A stretch of 64,000 nt of DNA. Source: Escherichia phage vB_EcoM_005. The notes under the pieces were generated by a model, which was given only the letters and a program-made list of their open reading frames with translations, did no database searches and was not told the origin of the DNA. The DNA lies in sequence record MK295203. One strand, given 5' to 3'. A program made the translations under genes and the position numbers. How positions within the stretch are numbered: the first letter of the stretch is position 1; each line of letters opens with the position of its first letter. Below, piece after piece: positions 24,860-57,461 of this stretch.

Positions 24860-26032
24860 ATGTCCGATTTAAAATCCCGTTTGATTAAAGCTTCTACTTC
24901 TAAAATGACTGCCGACCTGACCAAATCTAAATTGTTTAATGGTCGTGACGAAGTTCCTACTCGTATCCCTATGCTGAATATTGCATTAGGTGGTGCGTTG
25001 AATGCAGGCTTACAATCAGGTTTGACAATCTTTGCTGCTCCATCTAAACACTTTAAAACGTTGTTTGGACTTACCATGGTTGCGGCATATATGAAGAAAT
25101 ATCCAGACGCAATTTGTTTGTTCTATGACTCTGAGTTCGGTGCTTCAGAATCTTATTTCCGTTCGATGGGTGTTGATTTGGAACGTGTGGTTCATACACC
25201 AATCCAGTCGGTCGAACAGCTTAAAGTTGATATGACTAACCAGTTAGAAGAAATTACTCGTGGCGAAAAGGTTATTATCTTTATCGACTCCATTGGTAAT
25301 ACTGCTTCTAAGAAAGAAACCGAAGATGCTTTGAACGAGAAAGTTGTAGGTGATATGACTCGTGCTAAGTCACTGAAATCTCTGTTCCGTATCGTAACAC
25401 CTTATCTGACCATCAAGGATATCCCTTGTGTAGCAATTAACCACACTGCTATGGAAATTGGTGGAATGTATCCTAAAGAGATTATGGGTGGCGGTACTGG
25501 TATTCTGTACTCTGCTTCTACCGTGTTCTTTATCTCTAAACGTCAGGTTAAAGATGGTACTGAGCTCACTGGTTATGACTTCACACTGAAGGCTGAGAAA
25601 TCTCGTACGGTTAAAGAGAAGTCAACGTTCCCTATCACCGTTAACTTCGAAGGTGGCATTGACCCGTTTAGTGGATTGCTTGAAATGGCTACTGATATCG
25701 GCTTTGTCGTGAAACCTAAAGCAGGTTGGTATAATCGTGCATTCCTTGACGAAACCACGGGTGAAATGGTTCAAGAAGAAAAAGCATGGCGTGCTAAAGC
25801 TACCGATTGTGTTGAGTTCTGGGGACCGCTGTTTAAACATGCTCCGTTCCGTGAAGCAATCGAGAATAAGTATAAGCTTGGTGCAATTAATTCTATTAAA
25901 GAAGTTGACGATGCAGTGAACGACCTTATTAACTCTCGTGTCTCTAAGAACGTTGCTGTTAAATTAGGTGGAAATACCCAAAGCGCCGCTGATATCGAAA
26001 ACGATTTAGAAGAGATGGATTTAGATGACTGA
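24860..26032 (+). CDS. uvsX: recombinase UvsX (RecA-like)
   Basis: 390 aa; MSDLKSRLIKASTSK, Walker A AAPSKHFKT, near-colinear with my recollection of T4 UvsX. Confidence 0.95.
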   Translation: MSDLKSRLIKASTSKMTADLTKSKLFNGRDEVPTRIPMLNIALGGALNAGLQSGLTIFAAPSKHFKTLFGLTMVAAYMKKYPDAICLFYDSEFGASESYFRSMGVDLERVVHTPIQSVEQLKVDMTNQLEEITRGEKVIIFIDSIGNTASKKETEDALNEKVVGDMTRAKSLKSLFRIVTPYLTIKDIPCVAINHTAMEIGGMYPKEIMGGGTGILYSASTVFFISKRQVKDGTELTGYDFTLKAEKSRTVKEKSTFPITVNFEGGIDPFSGLLEMATDIGFVVKPKAGWYNRAFLDETTGEMVQEEKAWRAKATDCVEFWGPLFKHAPFREAIENKYKLGAINSIKEVDDAVNDLINSRVSKNVAVKLGGNTQSAADIENDLEEMDLDD

Positions 26033-26354
26033 TTTATCTGATTTAGATAATTTCGTTAAAGATACCGAAGAGGGTCCTAGTGACCCTCGGTATTATGAGA
26101 AATCATTAGATATAATCCGTAAGTCAATGGGTTCTGTTAAGCAGGAAATTATGCTTACTTTACCCGATGGCACTGCTCACATCGTTTATGTGATGAATAT
26201 TGTTATTGAGAAAGATGGAAAAGTGTCGGTTGATTTCGGAACACCTTCCGAAGACCGAAAAGAAGAGCTAGCGCTTCATGTAGAAAAATGTGTTACAATG
26301 CAAATACAAGAAGAACTGGATAAAATTAAATCTAAGAGGTGGTGGAAATGGTAG
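26025..26354 (+). CDS. hypothetical protein at the T4 gene 40 position
   Basis: 109-aa ORF between uvsX and 41; synteny only. Confidence 0.4.
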   Translation: MTDLSDLDNFVKDTEEGPSDPRYYEKSLDIIRKSMGSVKQEIMLTLPDGTAHIVYVMNIVIEKDGKVSVDFGTPSEDRKEELALHVEKCVTMQIQEELDKIKSKRWWKW

Positions 26355-27780
26355 AAACTATTTTGGCTCAACTGCTAGGCAATAGTGATTATTTCACTAA
26401 GGTCTGGCCTTATATGAATGATTCTTATTTTGACCAGGGTCCTGCAAAGACCCTTTTCAAAGAAATTAAAAAACACGTCAATGAATATAATGCAGTGCCT
26501 TCTAAGAACGCATTGAGCATTGCATTAGATAACAGTACGCTTTCAGAAGTTGAACATCAGGGCGCTAAAGAGCTTTTAAGTTCACTGAATGCCGGACCTG
26601 AAGACCAAGAATGGTTGGTTAAAGAGACGGAGAAATACGTTCAGAAAGCAGCGATGTATAATGCAACTTCAAAAATCATTGAAATCCAAACTAATGCCGA
26701 CCTTCCGGTTGAGCAACAAAATAGAAAACTTCCAGGTATTGGTGCTATTCCTGGATATCATGCGTGATGCATTATCGATTTGTTTCGATTCTGAATTAGG
26801 TCATGACTGGATGGATGACTATGAAGAACGATTCAAAAGTTATTCCGATAAAGCACGTAAGGTTCCGTTCCGTCTTAATATTCTGAATAAGATTACCAAG
26901 GGTGGTGCCGAGTTTGGTTACTGAAAACGTATTGTTGGCAGGAACAAACGTAGGTAAGTCTCTTGGCCTGTGTTCATTGGCTGCTGATTACCTTCAATCA
27001 GGTTACGATGTTCTTTATATCTCCATGGAGATGGCAGAGGAAGTATGTGCTAAGCGTATAGATGCCAACCTTCTGGATGTATCGCTGGATGATATCGATG
27101 ATGGTCATGTCTCTTGGCCTGAATATAAAGCTAAGATGGATAAATGGCGTTCAACTGCTACCTTAGGTCGTTTAAAGATTAAACAGTATCCTACTGGTGG
27201 TGCTAATGCCGATACCTTCCGTGCATTATTAAACGAATACAAGCTCAAACAAAACTTTGTGCCGCAGGTCGTTATCGTCGACTACTTGGCCATTTGTGCA
27301 TCGTCTCGTACTAAAGTTTTCTCTGAAAACAGTTACGGATTGATTAAGATGGTAGCCGAAGAACTACGTGGACTGGCAGTAGAGAAGAAATTATTGTTGT
27401 GGACAGCAGCCCAGACTACTCGTGGTGCGAACGTTGCGGCCGAAATCGATATGGCTGATATTGCTGAATCATTTGGTATTGCACATACTGCAGACTTCAT
27501 GTTAGGTGTGGTCGAGACAGAAGAGTTTGCTCAGATGGGTATGCAAATGGTTAAGCAGCTTAAATCTCGTTACGGCGATAAGAGCTACTACAACAAATTT
27601 AAGATTGGCGTTAAGAAAGGAAACCAACGTTGGTATGAAGTTGAAGACGATTCCAACCCAGGCCCGGTGAACACTGTTCGTGAGGCTACAGGTGAGATGA
27701 ATCGTCAAGCCGAGGTCAATCGTCAGACGCGTGTTAATAGAAGTGATTTAGACGATTTAGCAGCATCTATCAAATTTTAA
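26348..27780 (+). CDS. 41: replicative DNA helicase gp41 (DnaB-like), interrupted by two apparent +1 indels
   Basis: three consecutive ORFs in three frames (to 26767, 26589-26924, 26902-27780) together colinear with my recollection of T4 gp41; Walker A GTNVGKS; frame changes near 26754 and 26918. Confidence 0.85.
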
Positions 27781-27800
27781 GGAGCTTCGGCTCCTTTTTT
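27781..27800 (+). terminator. rho-independent terminator
   Basis: GGAGC-TTCG-GCTCC hairpin followed by TTTTTT. Confidence 0.6.
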
Positions 27801-27809
27801 GTTTTAAGG

Positions 27810-27838
27810 GTTTACATCTCCTATAGGCATGATACTAT
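27810..27838 (+). promoter_or_regulatory. T4-type early promoter
   Basis: GTTTAC 27810-27815, 17-nt spacer, TACTAT 27833-27838, AGACCTATCAAC leader. Confidence 0.55.
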
Positions 27839-27862
27839 AGACCTATCAACTTGGAGAACAAA

Positions 27863-28180
27863 ATGAAAACCATCGATTGCAAAGCAGAACATAAAGTGTA
27901 TTACCATGGAAGTTGTAGTGTTGCTAATATCGGTAATATGCTTTGTCCTCCTGAGGAAACAGGAGTTCTGTCTGAAACCGGTCGTAAGAAAAACCTAAAT
28001 CGTGTGTTCTTTACTGAAGATATCGGTTTGGCTAAGATTTATGCAGGACGCGCAGCTCGTTCAGTGGGAGGAGAACCTCGTCTTTATCGTGTAATTGCTC
28101 CGGTAGATGTGGTTTGTTTAAATGATACTAAAGGCGCCACAGTTTATCATGCTGAATGGGCCTTCTGTGAGGAAATCTAA
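27863..28180 (+). CDS. hypothetical protein
   Basis: 105-aa ORF downstream of early promoter. Confidence 0.45.
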   Translation: MKTIDCKAEHKVYYHGSCSVANIGNMLCPPEETGVLSETGRKKNLNRVFFTEDIGLAKIYAGRAARSVGGEPRLYRVIAPVDVVCLNDTKGATVYHAEWAFCEEI

Positions 28181-30109: not shown

Positions 30110-30145
30110 TATAATGGCTCTATTAATTTAGAGTATGATAAGTAC

Positions 30146-30676
30146 ATGGGTTCAGGAGGGCCTTTAAGTAGGGCAAAGGAAAAATACGGGCTGGAAAATT
30201 TCGAAAGAGAAATTCTAGAGTTTTTCCCTAATGAAGACCTAATGAACGAAGCTGAGGCAGCTATAGTAACTAAAGAATTTATTAAAAGACCCGATGTTTA
30301 TAATGCTGTGCCGGGCGGCAGAAGTTTTAGAGTAGGCCCGACGGAAAATTATGATTCTAAACGGCATTCAGAAGTCCAGATAAAAAGCTGGGATAATCCT
30401 GAAAAAAGGGCCAAGCAAGCCAAAACTATAAAAGCTATCGCATGGAAAGAATGGGATAATTTAGAGGAAGTAAAAATCCGACATAAAGAATCCTGCAGTA
30501 AAGCACAAAGAAAACATAAAGCCTGGAAAGATTATAATGTATTAAAAGAGATTTGGGTTAAATTAGGAAAACCTGGATACGGTAGGTTTAATAATGAATT
30601 AATTAAGCTTGGTTACGAAAAAAGAAATTACCAAAGAATGGTAGATGCTTTTAATAAAGAGGAAGAACTAGTATGA
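30146..30676 (+). pseudogene. GIY-YIG homing endonuclease remnant (N-terminally truncated)
   Basis: begins inside the catalytic domain (KYMGSGG...KEKYGLENFEREILE); NUMOD-like linker; C-terminal module shared with the two HNH ORFs downstream. Confidence 0.5.
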
Positions 30677-30927
30677 GTTTTGTAGACAGAGAATTTGCTT
30701 TAAGAGCTTTTCAAACACTGCCAAAATTTAGACAAGTTACCGGAAGCGATTTTAAGCTTAACGCAAGGTGCCCTATTTGTGGTGACTCACAGAAAGACGA
30801 ACATAAAGCTCGTTTTTGGGCTTATCCTGTGAATGATGGTGGCATTATGTTGCACTGCTTCAATTGCGATGCTAGTTTAGGAATTAAGAAGTATCTATAC
30901 GAATACGAGCCTGATTTATATCGTTAA
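30673..30927 (+). CDS. 61: DNA primase gp61, N-terminal zinc-binding domain as a separate ORF
   Basis: FKLNARCPICGDSQKDEHKARFW...HCFNC matches my recollection of the T4 gp61 zinc ribbon; ORF stops after EPDLYR. Confidence 0.8.
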   Translation: MSFVDREFALRAFQTLPKFRQVTGSDFKLNARCPICGDSQKDEHKARFWAYPVNDGGIMLHCFNCDASLGIKKYLYEYEPDLYR

Positions 30928-30940
30928 GATGCCTGTCATC

Positions 30941-31144
30941 GAAAAGCTTAATTTCTGTGAACGATTAGATAGAATGCCAAACGACCATCCTATTATCAAA
31001 TATGTGACACTACGTTGCATTCCTGAAAACAAATGGAATCGTGAAAAGCTTAATTTCTGTGAACGATTAGATAGAATGCCAAAGGACCATCCTATTATCA
31101 AATATGTAACACTACGTTGCATTCCTGAAAACAAATGGAATCGC
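30941..31144. repeat. tandem duplication, 2 x 102 bp (in frame) within primase
   Basis: two copies differing at 3 positions. Confidence 0.8.
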
Positions 31145-31496
31145 TTATGGTTTACTAAAGAATGGCCGGCATTGGTGAACTCTGTCAATCCAGGGACCTA
31201 TTCTAAATTGAAATGCCTGAGCCTCGTTTGGTTATTCCAATTTTCAATAAGAATAAACAAATTGAAAGTTTTCAGGGTCGAGCCTTACGTAAAGATGCTC
31301 CACAAAAATATATTACAATACGTTGTGGTTTACTAAAGAATGGCCGGCATTAGTTAACTCTGTGAATCCAGGGACCTATTCTAAAGAAATGCCTGAACCT
31401 CGTTTGGTTATTCCAATTTTCAATAAGAATAAACAAATTGAAAGTTTTCAGGGTCGAGCCTTACGTAAAGATGCTCCACAAAAATATATTACAATA
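31145..31496. repeat. tandem duplication, 2 x about 178 bp within primase
   Basis: copies nearly identical; copy 1 carries a small indel and the period is not a multiple of 3. Confidence 0.8.
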
Positions 31497-31592
31497 AGTT
31501 GGTGTGGGTAATGGAAGGCCCTATTGACTCTTTGTTTGTTCCGAATGCAATAGCAATTACTGGCGGGTCGTTGGACTTGGCTATGGTTCCAT

Positions 31593-31690
31593 GTAAAGAA
31601 ACTCGTGCCTGGGTAATGGACAATGAACCCCGCCATCCGTTGTAAAGAAACACGTGCCTGGGTAATGGACAATGAACCCCGCCATCCTGA
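31593..31690. repeat. tandem duplication, 2 x 49 bp within primase
   Basis: GTAAAGAAAC(T/A)CGTGCCTGGGTAATGGACAATGAACCCCGCCATCC repeated. Confidence 0.8.
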
Positions 31691-31719
31691 CACAATTAAG
31701 CGTATGCAACGATTAGTTG

Positions 31720-32370
31720 ATGCTGGCGAAAGGGTTCTATTCTGGGACAAGAGGAAAATTAAGAGGTTCTAAGCGGTCTTTATCATATTATACGGAAGAA
31801 CACCATGTTATACCTAGATGTATGAATGGTTCTGATGATAAAAACAATTTAGTTGCTTTATTGCCAAGAGAACACTTTGTAGCTCATAGGCTTTTAACAA
31901 AAATATATCCCGAAGTAAAAGGTCTACATTATGCTGTTAATTTAATGAGATATAATAAAGGAGTTAAATTAACTAGTAGAACTATAGCCACGTTAAGAGA
32001 AAATAACGCTAAAGCATTTTCAGGAAAAAATAACCCGATGTTTGGTAAACCTTCCTGGATTAGAGGGATGAAAACTCCTGAAGAAACTAAAGCCAAAATG
32101 CGCCTGGCTCATAAAGATAAAATTATATCTGATGAAGCCAAGGCCAATATGAGTAAAGCTAGAAAAGGAAGATTTAGTGGTAAAGATTCCCCTAGATATG
32201 GTTTGCCAAATCCTAGGCGTGGAGAAATATGGAATAGTTACGATATGCTTTATGAATTATGGGTTTACAATAATAAACCTAAACGCACCAAATTTAATAA
32301 AATAGCTGTTGATAATGGATATCCTGATATTTGTTATCGACGAATGATAGAAAACTTTAATAGGAAATAA
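31720..32370 (+). CDS. HNH homing endonuclease
   Basis: EEHHVIPRCMNGSDDKNNLVALLPREHFVAH (HNH motif); NUMOD-like repeats; first ATG lies inside the last codons of the primase fragment in another frame. Confidence 0.65.
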   Translation: MLAKGFYSGTRGKLRGSKRSLSYYTEEHHVIPRCMNGSDDKNNLVALLPREHFVAHRLLTKIYPEVKGLHYAVNLMRYNKGVKLTSRTIATLRENNAKAFSGKNNPMFGKPSWIRGMKTPEETKAKMRLAHKDKIISDEAKANMSKARKGRFSGKDSPRYGLPNPRRGEIWNSYDMLYELWVYNNKPKRTKFNKIAVDNGYPDICYRRMIENFNRK

Positions 32371-32374
32371 TATA

Positions 32375-32512
32375 ATGGCATTTTTTAACGAATGTAGTGG
32401 TTTGATTTCTGGTGTTGATAAAGCTGAGGAAGCTTATTTTAATGCTCTGATTCACGAAGATAATTTATTTATTCGCTTTAATCTAACAGTTTATAATTAT
32501 CTAACTTATTAA
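32375..32512 (+). pseudogene. dCTPase gp56 N-terminal fragment (diverged partial duplicate)
   Basis: MAFFNECSGLISGVDKAEEAYFNALIHED then out-of-family tail; 52 bp identical to the start of the next copy. Confidence 0.5.
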
Positions 32513-32535
32513 TGAATTGAAAAAGGAAAAATATA

Positions 32536-32955
32536 ATGGCACACTTTAACGAATGCGCAAACCTGATTGCTGGTGTTGATAAAGCTGAGGAAGCTTATTT
32601 TAATGCTCTGATTCACGAAGATAAGGACCCTCTGCAGGTTATGTTGCGTGAACAGAAAGATTGTATTGACGATGAATTCCGTGAACTTCTGACTTCCCTC
32701 GGTGAAATGTCTAAAGGTGAGAAAGATGCATCTGCTGTATGGAAAAAATGGAAAGCCCGTTACCCGGAAGCACAAGCCAAACCTATTTCAGAAATGTCTC
32801 CTGAAGACCAGCTTGAAATTAAATTTGAACTCATTGATATTATGCACTTCGTATTCAATATGGCTATTGGCTTGAATATGTCGGCTGAAGAAATGTTTAA
32901 ACTTTATTACCTGAAAAATAAACACAACTTTGAACGCCAGGACAATGGATATTAA
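32536..32955 (+). CDS. 56: dCTP pyrophosphatase gp56 (MazG-like), copy 1
   Basis: 139 aa; MAHFNECA..., KDCIDDEFRELLTSLGEMS, EDQLEIKFELIDIMHF, KLYYLKNKHNF match my recollection of T4 gp56; lacks about 32 internal residues relative to T4. Confidence 0.8.
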   Translation: MAHFNECANLIAGVDKAEEAYFNALIHEDKDPLQVMLREQKDCIDDEFRELLTSLGEMSKGEKDASAVWKKWKARYPEAQAKPISEMSPEDQLEIKFELIDIMHFVFNMAIGLNMSAEEMFKLYYLKNKHNFERQDNGY

Positions 32956-51685: not shown

Positions 51686-52860
51686 TTGATACCCTTTTTA
51701 AACAGGCTTTAGATGTTTACGATGATTCTTTCACTCGTCGTGACTTAAAAAGTATTATCGACAATGAAGCATTGGCTTATGCAATGTATACTGTCGAAAA
51801 CCGAGCCATTCCAAATATGATTGATGGCTTTAAACCTGTACAACGTTTTGTGGTTGCTCGTTGTCTTGATATGGCTCGTGGTAATAAAGAAAAATTCCAC
51901 AAACTCGCTTCTATTGCTGGTGGCGTAGCCGACCTTGGATATCACCATGGTGAAGGTTCTGCTCAGGAAGCAGGGGCTTTGATGGCTAACACATGGAACA
52001 ACAACTATCCATTGTTAGATGGTCAGGGTAACTTTGGTTCCCGATTGGTTCAAAAAGCTGCAGCCTCTCGTTATATTTTTGCTCGTATCGGAAGTAACTT
52101 TGCAAAAGTTTATAAGGACACAGAATATGCTCCGGTTCATGCGGATGTCGAACATAAGCCACCGGCTTTTTATCTGCCTATTATTCCTACTGTTCTTCTT
52201 AATGGCGTTTCCGGTATTGCAACTGGTTATGCAACTAATATTCTTCCTCATAGTTTTGATTCTGTTAAGAAAGCTGTATTGCAAGTTCTTCAGGAAAAAC
52301 GAGTAACCAAACCCAAAGTGGCTTATCCGGAATTCCGCGGTGAAGTTGTTGAAATTGAACCGGGTAGTTATGAGATTCGTGGAACGTATAAGTTCACATC
52401 TCGAACCCAAATGCATATCACGGAAATCCCGTACAAATATGACCGTGAAACATATGTGGCCAAGATATTAGACCCTCTGGAAGACAAAGGGTATATCACA
52501 TACGATGATGATTGTGATGAGAATGGTTTCGGCTTCAAGGTTAAGATTCGTAAAGAATATGAATTGCCTACTGATGAAGATAAGAAACACGAAAAACTCA
52601 TGAAGGACTTCGGGTTAATCGAACGTCGTTCACAAAACCTGACCGTCATTAATGAAAAAGGTAAACTTAAGGTTTACGAAGATGCAGTTGAACTGATTCG
52701 TGATTTCGTTGAGGTCCGTAAGACCTTTGTACAAAAACGTATTGATGGTAAAATCATCGAAACCGAAGAAGCTTTTAAACTGGCATTGGCTAAAGCCACA
52801 TTCATCAAAGATGTTATTGATGGCGTAGTGGTTATCCAAGGTAAGACCGAAAACCACTGA
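51673..52860 (+). CDS. 52: topoisomerase II medium subunit gp52 (GyrA-like)
   Basis: 395 aa; DGFKPVQRFV, LDGQGNFGS, active-site region AASRYIFAR; shorter than the roughly 440 aa I recall for T4, and a +1 frame continues briefly past the stop. Confidence 0.85.
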   Translation: MADVIDTLFKQALDVYDDSFTRRDLKSIIDNEALAYAMYTVENRAIPNMIDGFKPVQRFVVARCLDMARGNKEKFHKLASIAGGVADLGYHHGEGSAQEAGALMANTWNNNYPLLDGQGNFGSRLVQKAAASRYIFARIGSNFAKVYKDTEYAPVHADVEHKPPAFYLPIIPTVLLNGVSGIATGYATNILPHSFDSVKKAVLQVLQEKRVTKPKVAYPEFRGEVVEIEPGSYEIRGTYKFTSRTQMHITEIPYKYDRETYVAKILDPLEDKGYITYDDDCDENGFGFKVKIRKEYELPTDEDKKHEKLMKDFGLIERRSQNLTVINEKGKLKVYEDAVELIRDFVEVRKTFVQKRIDGKIIETEEAFKLALAKATFIKDVIDGVVVIQGKTENH

Positions 52861-54813: not shown

Positions 54814-54907
54814 TGAATCTTAAACAACTCCAGATTGATGCAATCGAAGCCCATATTAATCATGTTAAACGTCTTACCCTCTGGCAACGTGTTAAAGGAT
54901 GGTTCAA

Positions 54908-55396
54908 ATGAATCCATTAAAAGGTAAAGAATTATCCTTTAAACACCGTTTGGCTTTATTAGATAAAGCTCTTTCTCGTGAGACGCCTGAAAGTCTAGCA
55001 GCTAAATTACAGGCCTATGGTGATTACACCGAATATACGGAAGAGGATGTTCTAAAAGAAGTCCCTGAAATCTGTTGGCAAGTGGCCCATTGGTGTGAAG
55101 ACCAAAAATTCCAGCGTCGAATTGTATGTGCTGCAAACCGTTTTAAGTTAAAAGATGGTGGAACTCTGGTTATTCCTGCGACACGTCATTACTCTAAAGA
55201 TATGGGTGCGGTTATCAAGGCAGTTGAAGATAAATTGGTAACACGATTTGTCTGTGATGATGACCAAGGCTTTGTCGACCAATATGGTAATTATTGGACT
55301 CGTGAAGAAGCAATGATAATTGCAACATATGCTAATCAGGTTCGTATTGAACGTGGTGGTAGTGAAAAAGAACTTTACTCTGAGGACCTTTACTAA
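54908..55396 (+). CDS. hypothetical protein, tandem paralogue B
   Basis: 163 aa; same domain as 54325-54813, mosaic of identical and diverged blocks. Confidence 0.5.
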
Positions 55397-55417
55397 TGAA
55401 TCTTAAACAACTCCAGA

Positions 55418-55678
55418 TTGATGCAATCGAAGCCCATATTAATCATGTTAAACGCACTGAATGCCACGGTGGAAGATAATTGGGGAACTTATGTAAACCA
55501 ACCGGCTTGGGATGCTTTAGACCACGAATATATAAAGAATATTAGTTCTAAGACAATCCACGGGAATATGGAAGGGTTGAAGCCATTCCTACGTGATATG
55601 TATATTGCAACTAATAAAGAAATTATCAGCTCTCTTGAATATCAATTAAGGAAATTACGTGAACAATCTGGTAGCTAA
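55418..55678 (+). CDS. hypothetical protein (second copy at 56899-57111)
   Basis: 86-aa ORF; C-terminal 70 residues repeated nearly identically 1.4 kb downstream. Confidence 0.4.
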   Translation: MMQSKPILIMLNALNATVEDNWGTYVNQPAWDALDHEYIKNISSKTIHGNMEGLKPFLRDMYIATNKEIISSLEYQLRKLREQSGS

Positions 55679-55800
55679 GCACGACTCATAAGGACAAGAA
55701 GAAAAACTTTAAAGAGTCTAAACGTAAACAGAAACATAAGGGTAAAGGCTATGAGTCATAACTTAGAGAATACCGTAACAGGCATGCGTACACGGGACAT

Positions 55801-55829
55801 GTTTACAATCCCTAAGGATATGTTAGTAT
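55801..55829 (+). promoter_or_regulatory. T4-type early promoter (copy 1)
   Basis: GTTTAC 55801-55806, 17-nt spacer, TAGTAT 55824-55829. Confidence 0.5.
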
Positions 55830-55870
55830 AGCCCTATCAGATAATGACGTACTGAATTGAAGAGAATATT

Positions 55871-56005
55871 ATGACTAAAATTGAAATCGTTTCCGAAATT
55901 GCCACTATTGTTTCCATTTTGATTAAAACGGATTGTGAAGACATCATGCAACGTCGTGATGAGTTTATGAACATGTTTACAATCCCTAAGGATATGTTAG
56001 TATAG
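55871..56005 (+). pseudogene. asiA 5' duplicate, truncated at the repeat junction
   Basis: MTKIEIVSEIATIVSILIKTDCEDIMQRRDEF then reads into the repeated promoter sequence and stops. Confidence 0.5.
55975..56003 (+). promoter_or_regulatory. T4-type early promoter (copy 2)
   Basis: identical to the 55801-55829 promoter. Confidence 0.5.
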
Positions 56006-56044
56006 CCCTATCAGATAATGACGTACTGAATTGAAGAGAATATT

Positions 56045-56320
56045 ATGACTAAAATTGAAATTGTTTCCGAAATTGCTACTATTGTTTCCATTTTGATTAA
56101 AACGGATTGTGAAGACATCATGCAACGTCGTGATGAGTTTATTGCCTTTTTGAATGAGTTGGGTATTCGTAATGAACATGGAAAGGAACTTAATGGTTTG
56201 TCTTATAACAAATTATTTAAGTCTTTAACTGAAGATGAACGTGACACTCTTATTGAGCAATTTAATGAAGGATATGAAGATATACACCGTTATTTAATGA
56301 TGTATACCTCCAATTTCTAA
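56045..56320 (+). CDS. asiA: anti-sigma-70 factor AsiA
   Basis: 91 aa; TIVSILIK...FIAFLNE.G..HEG..LN..S..K....LTE...TLIEQFNEGYE..HRYL.MYT matches my recollection of T4 AsiA. Confidence 0.85.
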   Translation: MTKIEIVSEIATIVSILIKTDCEDIMQRRDEFIAFLNELGIRNEHGKELNGLSYNKLFKSLTEDERDTLIEQFNEGYEDIHRYLMMYTSNF

Positions 56321-56643
56321 CGTGTTCGACCTAATGTCCTTCCGGCTTGACCGCACATAGACGAAAGTCTAGGAAATCCTAAATCCGGTTTGGCGCCTTT
56401 TTGAATGAGTTAGGTATTCGTAATGAACATGGAAAGGAACTTAATGGTTTGTCTTATAACAAATTATTTAAGTCTTTATCTGAAGATGAGCGTGAAACTC
56501 TTATTGAGCAATTTAATGAAGGATATGAAGATATACACCGTTACTTAATGATGTATACCTCCAATTTCTAACGTGTTCGACCTAATGTCCTGCCCGGCTT
56601 GACCACACATAGACGAAAGTCTAGGAAATCCTAAATCCGGTTT
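56144..56643. repeat. tandem duplication, 2 x about 250 bp (asiA 3' half plus the convergent holin 3' end)
   Basis: copy 1 56144-56392, copy 2 56395-56643, about 97% identical. Confidence 0.8.
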
Positions 56644-56907
56644 GATATCATACCAGTACAACGATATCGAGCCGGCGTAGACGTTATCCAAATTAAAAAA
56701 CGGGCATGAAAACATATACGTGAATTGTGTTTTCTTCTTTGTAGGAAGGAATACAGTTTCAGTACTTGATTCAAAGATATCATACCAGTACAACGATATC
56801 GAGCCGGAGTAGACGTTATCCAAATTAAAAAACGGGCATGAAAACATATACGTGAATTGTGTTTTCTTCTTTGTAGGAAGGAATACAGTTTCGATGTCAT
56901 GGTGGAA
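56644..56907. repeat. tandem duplication, 2 x 132 bp (in frame, 44 codons of holin)
   Basis: copies differ at one position. Confidence 0.8.
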
Positions 56908-57111
56908 GACAACTGGGGAACTTATGTCAACCAACCGGCTTGGGATGCCTTAGACCACGAATATATAAAGAATATTAGTTCTAAGACAATCCATGGTAAT
57001 ATGGAAGGGTTGAAGCCGTTCCTACGTGATATGTATATTGCAACTAATAAAGAAATTATCAGCTCTCTTGAATATCAATTAAGGAAATTACGTGAACAAT
57101 CTGGTAGCTAA
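56899..57111 (+). CDS. duplicate copy of the 55418-55678 ORF, embedded within the holin region
   Basis: 70-aa ORF about 93% identical at DNA level to 55469-55678. Confidence 0.35.
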   Translation: MVEDNWGTYVNQPAWDALDHEYIKNISSKTIHGNMEGLKPFLRDMYIATNKEIISSLEYQLRKLREQSGS

Positions 57112-57133
57112 GCACGAGGGTACTTGATTCAAA

Positions 57134-57339
57134 ATAGTTCCCGTTAACTCCCGCCATATATTCTACTGACGTTTTGTCAATTGGAAACCCTCCCGTATTT
57201 TTTGCGTCTACCGTTTCCGGTAATTTACCCTCGTAGATAGTTCCCGTTAACTCCCGCCATATATTCTATTGACGTTTTGTCAATTGGAAACCCTCCCGTG
57301 TTTTTTGCGTCTACCGTTTCCGGTAATTTACCCTCGTAG
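57134..57339. repeat. tandem duplication, 2 x 103 bp within holin
   Basis: copies differ at 2-3 positions; period not a multiple of 3. Confidence 0.8.
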
Positions 57340-57343
57340 GCCA

Positions 57344-57461
57344 CCATATCCACAAAATAATTCATGTTGGTTGGTCTAAAAGAATATATTGCTGTGAAGG
57401 AGCAACCATATCCACAAAATAATTCATGTTGGTTGGTCTAAAAGAATATATTGCTGTGAAG
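57344..57461. repeat. tandem duplication, 2 x about 62 bp within holin
   Basis: 56 bp identical in both copies; creates the stop ending the N-terminal holin ORF. Confidence 0.8.

What the first reader, a model, noticed from the sequence alone, without database searches (positions are those of the whole stretch)
26348..27780. Replicative helicase gene 41 is split by two single-base insertions about 165 bp apart
The gp41 sequence is readable continuously only by switching frame twice: an extra G near 26754 (CCTGGATATC where the conserved reading needs CCTGATATC) and an extra T near 26918 (GGTTACT versus GGTACT). Both are 1-to-2 homopolymer changes and the net +2 leaves a short middle segment in a third frame. 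gp41 is essential in T4, so this is most likely sequencing error, but a compensating double frameshift cannot be excluded from sequence alone.
Basis: partly seen in the sequence, partly recalled or inferred. Interest (0 to 1): 0.5.

Follow-up and report, generated by a model that had tools for sequence, protein, structure and literature searches.

The report
Helicase gene broken by sequence artefacts
The replicative helicase gene of this T4-like phage is interrupted by two extra bases, but they belong to about forty non-biological splice-like defects in this sequence, so the break is almost certainly an artefact of how the sequence was produced.

Summary
The gp41 homologue (26348-27780, + strand) reads in three frames because of one extra base at 26752-26754 and one extra T at 26918/26919. 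Deleting both gives a 476-aa ORF that matches T4 gp41 end to end. Its protein is identical, apart from the start codon, to gp41 of its Dhakavirus relatives ABTNLsp5 and Bp7. The DNA differs from them at 41-49 positions, and all other differences are synonymous.

Neither insertion occurs elsewhere. They are absent from 21 inspected relatives and from 40 GenBank records judged by length. Ten contigs with an identical UvsX all have an intact gp41. Exact-pattern scans of IMG/VR, JGI metagenomes and GTDB genomes found nothing. No recoding signal is present.

The decisive context is that the window holds about 40 other private junction defects:
- 14 deletions of exactly 99 nt, in genes such as gp43, gp46, rIIA and gp39.
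- Other deletions in gp61, dda, dexA and gp52.
- A series of abutting "back-up" duplications in gp61 and in asiA/t, whose two copies carry alleles of two different natural haplotypes.

Many junctions carry a 1-nt filler. The gp41 insertions look like the same signature with no displacement.

Verdict: an artefact of assembly or processing, not a real disrupted or recoded gene. Interest is low.

The parts
26348..26752 (+). gp41 segment 1 (aa 1-139, N-terminal domain), window frame 2. The ATG at 26348 is GTG in all relatives.
   Evidence: tblastn HSP at 99.3% identity; translation; alignment to T4 gp41, PDB 8dtp.
26752..26754 (+). First extra base. Window has CCTGGAT where relatives have CC[A/G]GAT. 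Most simply this is T26752 inserted into a CCG GAT allele.
   Evidence: Zero of 21 relatives carry it. Exact-pattern scans found nothing.
26765..26767 (+). Premature TGA that ends segment 1's frame, 4 codons after the first insertion.
26754..26918 (+). gp41 segment 2 (aa 140-194: linker region and start of the DnaB_C/RecA-like domain), window frame 0.
   Evidence: tblastn HSP at 100% identity; Pfam DnaB_C starts at aa 178.
26918..26919 (+). Second extra base. Window has GGTTACT where 21 of 21 relatives have GGTACT.
   Evidence: Exact-pattern scans found nothing. The un-inserted control pattern found 4 IMG/VR contigs.
26922..26924 (+). Premature TGA that ends segment 2's frame, immediately after the second insertion.
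26920..27780 (+). gp41 segment 3 (aa 195-476, Walker A GTNVGKS and the rest of the helicase domain, with the natural stop), window frame 1.
   Evidence: tblastn HSP at 100% identity; translation.

Best explanation
The two extra bases are artefacts of whatever produced this sequence (assembly, contig or graph-path joining, or later processing). They are not mutations in the phage. The phage's real gene 41 is an intact 476-codon DnaB-like replicative helicase gene. The window is a Dhakavirus (JS98/IME08-like) genome segment that has been pasted together from pieces with faulty joins. Where the next piece starts too far ahead there is a deletion, fourteen times of exactly 99 nt. Where it starts too far back there is a tandem 'back-up' duplication, often with the second copy from another haplotype. 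Many joins carry a spurious 1-nt filler. The two gp41 insertions are read here as such joins with no displacement, leaving only the filler base. What is shown: the insertions exist, they are private to this window, the gene is otherwise under perfect purifying selection, and the window is full of non-biological junction defects. What is inferred: the gp41 insertions come from the same process. The process itself was not identified.
For: (1) Removing T26752 and one T of 26918/9 gives a 476-aa ORF. Apart from the start codon, its protein is identical to ABTNLsp5 and Bp7 gp41 despite 41-49 nt differences, so all other differences are synonymous. It aligns 1-476 to T4 gp41 8dtp at E=7.6e-208.
(2) Relatives lack the insertions. 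The 40 best GenBank records span 1499 nt where the window has 1501. All 21 inspected loci lack both bases. Ten contigs from NCBI, Logan and ENA that encode the identical UvsX all have a 476-aa gp41. Exact patterns containing either insertion give 0 hits in IMG/VR, JGI metagenomes and GTDB genomes. The un-inserted control gives 4 hits.
(3) Other frameshifting small insertions private to the window occur only inside obviously scrambled zones, at 31208-9, 55455 and 56592. The isolated 1-2 nt indels examined elsewhere are intergenic and, in nearly every case, shared with a relative.
(4) Fourteen window-private deletions of exactly 99 nt exist against all three full-length relatives, several as 100 nt replaced by one mismatched base. 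They lie at 1440, 3351, 5818, 12296, 12774, 19485, 24503, 32643, 35708, 42376, 44940, 46089, 46748 and 51628, inside genes including gp46 (twice), gp43 and rIIA (twice).
(5) Further private deletions lie in dda (127 nt), dexA (255 nt) and gp52 (about 152 nt plus a filler), and in gp61.
(6) There are 8 or more abutting back-up duplications in gp61 (30941-31689) and asiA/t (55797-57461), plus a transplanted 224-nt fragment at 56894-57117.
(7) The two copies differ mostly at sites that are polymorphic among natural relatives. Copy 1 carries S3-like alleles and copy 2 carries sp5- or Bp7-like alleles. So two haplotypes were joined in series.
(8) Junctions carry 0-5 nt fillers, most often 1 nt. The lesions together hit gp41, gp61, gp43, gp46, gp52, gp39, dCTPase and t. 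By established T4 genetics no such phage could propagate (own knowledge).
Against: The producing process was not identified and no reads are available, so the link between the gp41 insertions and the other junction defects is by analogy. Site 1 lies in a 300-nt stretch that matches the closest relative perfectly, so no haplotype switch marks it as a join. The exact 99-nt size is not explained by any assembler behaviour I could reconstruct; a k=99 graph model does not fit the duplication lengths. The source record was not found in any collection searched.
Confidence: 0.85

Rival explanations
1. Ordinary read-level base-calling errors, such as homopolymer miscalls of a 454, Ion Torrent or Nanopore type platform. 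These would have struck gp41 twice, independently of the other defects in the window.
For: Site 2 is a T to TT change. Single-base insertions are the classic error of such platforms (own knowledge).
Against: Such errors concentrate in long homopolymers and scatter over the whole genome. Here the aligned coding sequence outside the scrambled zones has no other private frameshift. Substitution noise is nil, with only synonymous differences in gp41 and an identical UvsX protein. Site 1 is best read as a T inserted between C and G, not a run extension. Two hits 166 nt apart are very unlikely if errors were spread evenly along the window (inference).
Confidence: 0.07
2. The insertions are genuine, and the sequence is that of a defective, non-propagating or helper-dependent Dhakavirus genome with a very recently inactivated gene 41.
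For: The lesions hit several replication genes (41, 61, dda, 52, dexA), which could suggest a defective genome carried along in a mixed infection. Two haplotypes are evidently present in the source material.
Against: Fourteen deletions of exactly 99 nt in unrelated genes have no natural mechanism. Serial abutting duplications with fillers are not what recombination in T4-like phages is known to produce (own knowledge). There is no relaxation of selection in gp41, with no nonsynonymous change among 41-49 differences from ABTNLsp5 and Bp7 apart from the start codon. One frameshift is enough to kill the gene, so a second one 166 nt away needs a separate event. The insertions are never seen in any other assembly.
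Confidence: 0.05
3. The insertions are genuine and tolerated. Either two programmed +1 ribosomal frameshifts restore full-length gp41, or termination-reinitiation makes a three-piece helicase. ATG 26760 lies 5 nt before the frame-1 stop at 26765-7, and TTG 26914 or GTG 26902 lies just before the frame-2 stop at 26922-4.
For: Start codons do overlap both premature stops. T4-like phages do have split replication genes and one famous recoding event, in gene 60 (own knowledge).
Against: There is no P-site codon able to re-pair in the +1 frame: CCU-G and GGU-U/UAC-U, read directly. There is no prfB-like Shine-Dalgarno stimulator and no homopolymer run for transcriptional slippage. Rfam gives no match at E<=1. 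The flanking sequence is the same as in relatives whose gene is intact, so nothing has evolved around the sites. The insertions are not conserved in any relative. Two sequential low-efficiency events would give negligible product. The cuts fall at aa 139/140 and aa 194/195, the second just before Walker A inside the DnaB_C domain.
Confidence: 0.02

Closest known systems
gp41 of Dhakavirus phages (e.g. ABTNLsp5 QPI13456.1, Bp7 AEN93815.1, IME08 ADI55365.1, JS98 AAU29226.2)
   Same: Same locus (uvsX-40-41) and 95-97% DNA identity. After removing the two bases, the 476-aa protein is identical to ABTNLsp5 and Bp7 apart from the start codon.
   Different: The window has two private 1-nt insertions and an ATG instead of GTG at the start.
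Bacteriophage T4 gp41 DnaB-like replicative helicase (PDB 8dtp, 8duo, 8g0z)
   Same: The repaired protein aligns over its full length (1-476 to 1-475, E=7.6e-208). Both insertion sites lie in motifs conserved with T4: GAIPDIMR, and GGAExGT just before Walker A.
   Different: As given, the window cannot encode it in one frame.
Programmed +1 frameshifting (E. coli prfB type) and T4 gene 60 translational bypass
   Same: Only a formal similarity: a +1 shift, or a skip of one base, would be needed at each site, and a stop codon follows each site closely.
   Different: No slippery or re-pairing codon, no upstream Shine-Dalgarno stimulator, no take-off and landing codon pair, no conservation in relatives, and no Rfam match.
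Mis-joined draft or mixed-strain assemblies (haplotype duplication, concatenated contigs)
   Same: Abutting back-up duplications whose copies carry alleles of two natural haplotypes, dropped stretches, and filler bases at joins.
   Different: The fixed 99-nt deletion size is not explained by any standard pipeline I could reconstruct.

Membership tests
T4-type gp41 / DnaB-like replicative helicase gene | Full-length sequence similarity to T4 gp41 | tested here: met
   The repaired ORF matches 8dtp_A over 1-476/1-475, E=7.6e-208.
T4-type gp41 / DnaB-like replicative helicase gene | DnaB_C (RecA-like) domain with Walker A | tested here: met
   Pfam PF03796 at aa 178-394, E=1.1e-11. GTNVGKS is read directly in segment 3.
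T4-type gp41 / DnaB-like replicative helicase gene | Conserved position downstream of uvsX and gene 40 | tested here: met
   ORFs at 24860-26032 (UvsX) and 26025-26354 (gp40) precede it. The order is the same in the annotated relatives.
T4-type gp41 / DnaB-like replicative helicase gene | One uninterrupted reading frame | tested here: not met
   Three frames, with premature TGA at 26765 and 26922. This is judged to be an artefact of the sequence.
Programmed +1 ribosomal frameshift | Shift-prone P-site codon able to re-pair in +1, next to a slow A-site codon | tested here: not met
   The sites read CCU GGA and GGU UAC UGA. tRNA re-pairing on CUG, GUU or ACU is not supported (sequence; rule from own knowledge of prfB-type sites).
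Programmed +1 ribosomal frameshift | Frameshift conserved in related genomes | tested here: not met
   Zero of 21 loci and zero of 40 records by length. No pattern hits in three collections.
Programmed +1 ribosomal frameshift | Known stimulatory RNA element | tested here: not met
   No Rfam match at E<=1 in 26300-27900.
Transcriptional slippage recoding | Long A or T homopolymer run at the site | tested here: not met
   The runs are 2 nt long.
Genuine pseudogene (decaying gene) | Relaxed selection: nonsynonymous changes and further lesions accumulating | tested here: not met
   Against ABTNLsp5 and Bp7, none of the 41-49 differences is nonsynonymous apart from the start codon; IME08 and JS98 each differ by one further amino acid. 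All three segments are 99-100% identical in protein to relatives. A very recent event cannot be excluded by this test.
Assembly or processing artefact | Other non-biological defects in the same sequence | tested here: met
   14 deletions of exactly 99 nt, serial two-haplotype back-up duplications, and filler bases.
Assembly or processing artefact | Raw reads contradict the consensus at the two sites | not testable with these tools
   No reads are available and no source record was found.

The most novel reading that the evidence does not exclude
Both insertions are real in a circulating Dhakavirus genome. That genome would either be a helper-dependent defective phage lacking its own primosome (genes 41, 61 and dda all broken), or it would express the helicase in three pieces by termination-reinitiation at the overlapping ATG 26760 / TGA 26765 and TTG 26914 / TGA 26922.
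Probability: 0.03. Interest if true: 0.6.

Novelty: not a real feature. Interest (0 to 1): 0.06.

Why it matters
As biology it does not matter: gene 41 of this phage is almost certainly intact and ordinary. The practical value is as a warning. This window contains about forty junction-type defects, so any other finding from it that rests on a frameshift, a truncated or shortened gene, a tandem repeat or a duplicated gene should be treated as suspect until checked against relatives or reads.

Tried and rejected
- **Looking for the source or an independent copy of the same strain.** megablast against phage records gave a best match of 97%. Plasmid and E. coli genome collections gave no match. 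Exact-pattern scans of IMG/VR, JGI metagenomes and GTDB found nothing. An exact-protein look-up of the truncated N-terminal product found nothing on record. The source was not found.
- **Mixed-allele consensus idea for site 1** (two alleles of one SNP both kept). Rejected as the sole cause, because the relatives' alleles are A and G while the extra base is T. It also cannot explain site 2, which is invariant.
- **Haplotype switch at the insertion sites.** Divergence from relatives rises from about 1% to about 4% near site 2. This fits a join there but equally fits natural mosaicism. There is no switch at site 1. Inconclusive.
- **de Bruijn graph (k=99) overlap-trimming model** for the 99-nt deletions and the duplications. 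The duplication lengths (49-251 nt) and the positions of differences inside the copies do not fit. Not adopted.
- **Restriction sites at junctions.** An EcoRV site lies next to site 1, an RsaI site at site 2, and EcoRI, SmaI, HindIII and StuI sites lie at the start of some deleted blocks. The junctions do not coincide with the cut positions. Treated as coincidence and not tested statistically.
- **Literature search** for a Dhakavirus with a disrupted gp41. Nothing relevant was found.
- **Random-mutation simulator as the origin of the duplications.** Disfavoured, because the copy differences sit at natural polymorphic sites with natural alleles.

Full report
**What is there.** The window is a segment of a T4-like phage of the genus Dhakavirus (the JS98, IME08, Bp7 group). 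The best GenBank matches are 95-97% identical and the gene order is the same. Downstream of uvsX (24860-26032) and gene 40 (26025-26354) lies the homologue of T4 gene 41.
- 26348-26767, ending at TGA 26765.
- A middle piece ending at TGA 26922.
- 26902/26920-27780.

tblastn of the intact gp41 of three relatives gives three abutting matches, each shifted +1 from the one before:
- aa 1-139 at 99.3% identity.
- aa 140-194 at 100% identity.
- aa 195-480 of the stop-to-stop ORF at 100% identity.

A DNA alignment shows exactly two window-private single-base insertions. The window has ATTCCTGGATATC where relatives have ATTCC[A/G]GATATC, and TTTGGTTACTG where they have TTTGGTACTG.

Among 21 relatives the proline codon at site 1 is CCA (15) or CCG (6), never CCT. 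The closest relatives with CCG match perfectly once T26752 is removed. Site 1 is therefore most simply a T inserted between C and G, not an extra G.

**The gene underneath is intact and under strong selection.** Removing one base at each site gives a 1431-nt ORF of 476 codons.
- Apart from the start codon (ATG here, GTG in relatives), its protein is identical to gp41 of ABTNLsp5 and Bp7.
- The DNA differs from them at 41 and 49 positions, so every other difference is synonymous. This includes the differences in the 55-codon middle piece.
- The protein aligns end to end with T4 gp41 (PDB 8dtp, E=7.6e-208) and has the DnaB_C domain.
- The first insertion falls in the conserved GAIPDIMR motif. 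The second falls three codons before the Walker A segment.

A gene that had really lost its function would not stay free of amino-acid changes over 3-4% nucleotide divergence. The breaks are therefore either extremely recent or not real.

**Nobody else has these bases.**
- The 40 best GenBank records all span 1499 nt where the window has 1501.
- Ten contigs from NCBI, Logan and ENA that encode exactly the same UvsX protein all carry a 476-aa gp41.
- All 21 loci inspected base by base lack both insertions.
- Exact patterns spanning either insertion give no hit in IMG/VR, the JGI metagenomes or the GTDB genomes. The un-inserted version of site 2 finds four IMG/VR contigs, a positive control.
- The source of the window itself was not found in any collection.

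**No recoding signal.** Restoring the frame would need a +1 shift at each site.
- The local codons (CCU GGA; GGU UAC UGA) offer no P-site re-pairing in the +1 frame.
- There is no upstream Shine-Dalgarno-like stimulator and no homopolymer run for transcriptional slippage (sequence; rules from established knowledge of prfB-type sites).
- Rfam finds nothing in 26300-27900 at E<=1.
- The surrounding sequence is the same as in relatives whose gene is uninterrupted, so nothing has evolved around the sites.
- Start codons do overlap both premature stops (ATG 26760; GTG 26902 or TTG 26914), so a three-piece product is formally possible. However, the second cut lies inside the DnaB_C domain just before Walker A. 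I consider a functional split very unlikely.

**The context decides the case.** I compared the whole window with three full-length relatives (ABTNLS3, ABTNLsp5, Bp7).

*Small indels.* The isolated 1-2 nt indels examined outside the scrambled zones are intergenic, and nearly all are shared with at least one relative. They are natural polymorphisms. Base-level accuracy is high.

*Private junction-type defects.* The window nevertheless contains about forty of these.
- Fourteen deletions of exactly 99 nt relative to all three relatives. Several are really 100 nt replaced by one mismatched base. They lie at 1440, 3351, 5818, 12296, 12774, 19485, 24503, 32643, 35708, 42376, 44940, 46089, 46748 and 51628. 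The genes hit include gp46 (twice), the DNA polymerase gp43, the dCTPase, rIIA (twice) and the end of gp39.
- Other private deletions: 127 nt in dda, 255 nt in dexA and about 152 nt plus a filler in gp52, and about 85, 54 and 438 nt in gp61.
- Two zones where the sequence repeatedly backs up and repeats itself.
  - In gp61 (30941-31689) it backs up by 101, 173 and 47 nt.
  - In arn/asiA/t (54876-57461) it backs up by about 560, 174, 249, 132, 102 and 61 nt.
  - A 224-nt fragment of the arn.2 gene is transplanted into gene t at 56894-57117.
- The two copies of each duplication differ mainly at sites that are polymorphic among natural relatives. The first copy carries ABTNLS3-like alleles and the second carries ABTNLsp5- or Bp7-like alleles. 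Pieces of two natural haplotypes have therefore been joined in series.
- The joins carry 0-5 nt of filler, most often a single base.
- The only other private frameshifting insertions (31208-9, 55455, 56592) sit inside these scrambled zones.

**Interpretation.** No natural process makes fourteen 99-nt deletions in unrelated genes. Several of those genes are essential according to T4 genetics (my own knowledge), and a phage with gp41, gp61, gp43, gp46, gp52, dCTPase and the holin gene all damaged could not propagate. The window has therefore been corrupted by a non-biological process that joins pieces imprecisely.

The two gp41 insertions fit that process as joins with no displacement, where only the 1-nt filler remains. 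This last step is inference by analogy. I could not identify the process. A k=99 graph-trimming model does not fit the duplication sizes, and I have no reads. Divergence from relatives rises from about 1% to about 4% close to site 2. That is compatible with a join of two haplotypes there, but also with natural mosaicism.

**Rivals.**
- Independent read-level homopolymer errors are possible but fit poorly. The rest of the aligned coding sequence is free of such errors, and site 1 is not a run extension.
- A genuinely defective genome would need the 99-nt deletions to be real as well, which I consider implausible.
- Recoding or a split helicase has no supporting signal.

**Verdict.** The finding is real as an observation. 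It is not a new biological feature. The most useful outcome is the warning that this window carries many similar defects.

Noticed in passing
window 1440, 3351, 5818, 12296, 12774, 19485, 24503, 32643, 35708, 42376, 44940, 46089, 46748, 51628: Fourteen window-private deletions of exactly 99 nt against all three full-length relatives. Several are 100 nt replaced by one mismatched base. They sit inside genes including gp46 (twice), gp43 polymerase, dCTPase and rIIA (twice), and one removes the end of gp39. There are no flanking repeats and no regular spacing. This is a non-biological pattern of unknown origin.
   Followed up: yes
window 30673-31752 (gene 61 primase): The primase gene is scrambled. 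About 85 nt are missing at 30924. Tandem back-ups of 101, 173 and 47 nt lie at 30941-31143, 31145-31501 and 31592-31689. There is a private TT at 31208-9, 54 nt are missing at 31497, and the C-terminal ~438 nt are lost at 31751/2. The copies carry alleles of different natural haplotypes.
   Followed up: yes
window 30134-30680 and 31717-32370: Two homing-endonuclease-like ORFs flank gene 61. ORF 30146-30676 matches PHROG 314 'homing endonuclease' over part of the profile and is absent at this place in the three relatives. ORF 31717-32370 has HNH/NUMOD3 hits and lies in a stretch (31752-32463) that is 99.7% identical to the DNA carrying the ABTNLS3 homing endonuclease gene. The N-terminal 243 nt of gene 61 next to the first ORF are only 74% identical to relatives.
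   Followed up: partly
window 32356-32644 (start of gene 56 dCTPase): The dCTPase start region is present twice. The first copy is in an ABTNLS3-like context (99.7%) and the second in an ABTNLsp5-like context (98.3%). A 99-nt deletion follows inside the gene at 32643.
   Followed up: partly
window 38788 (dda), 40155/6 (dexA), 52848-52850 (gene 52): Private deletions: 127 nt in dda with a frameshift, 255 nt in frame in dexA, and about 152 nt plus a 1-nt filler in the topoisomerase medium subunit with a frameshift.
   Followed up: yes
window 54876-57461 (arn.3/arn.2, asiA, t): A chain of back-up duplications of about 560, 174, 249, 132, 102 and 61 nt. It also contains a +1 insertion at 55455, a 17-nt deletion at 55686, a +1 insertion at 56592, and a 224-nt copy of the arn.2 region transplanted into gene t at 56894-57117. 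The second arn.3 copy is only 88% identical to known relatives.
   Followed up: yes
window 26348: The gp41 start codon is ATG here but GTG in all 13 relatives compared at this position. This is the only non-synonymous-looking difference from ABTNLsp5 and Bp7 in the gene.
   Followed up: no
window 26900-26970: Divergence from the nearest relatives jumps from about 1% upstream (98.9% to KIT01) to about 4% downstream (96.3% at best), close to the second insertion. It could be a natural mosaic boundary or a join of two haplotypes.
   Followed up: partly
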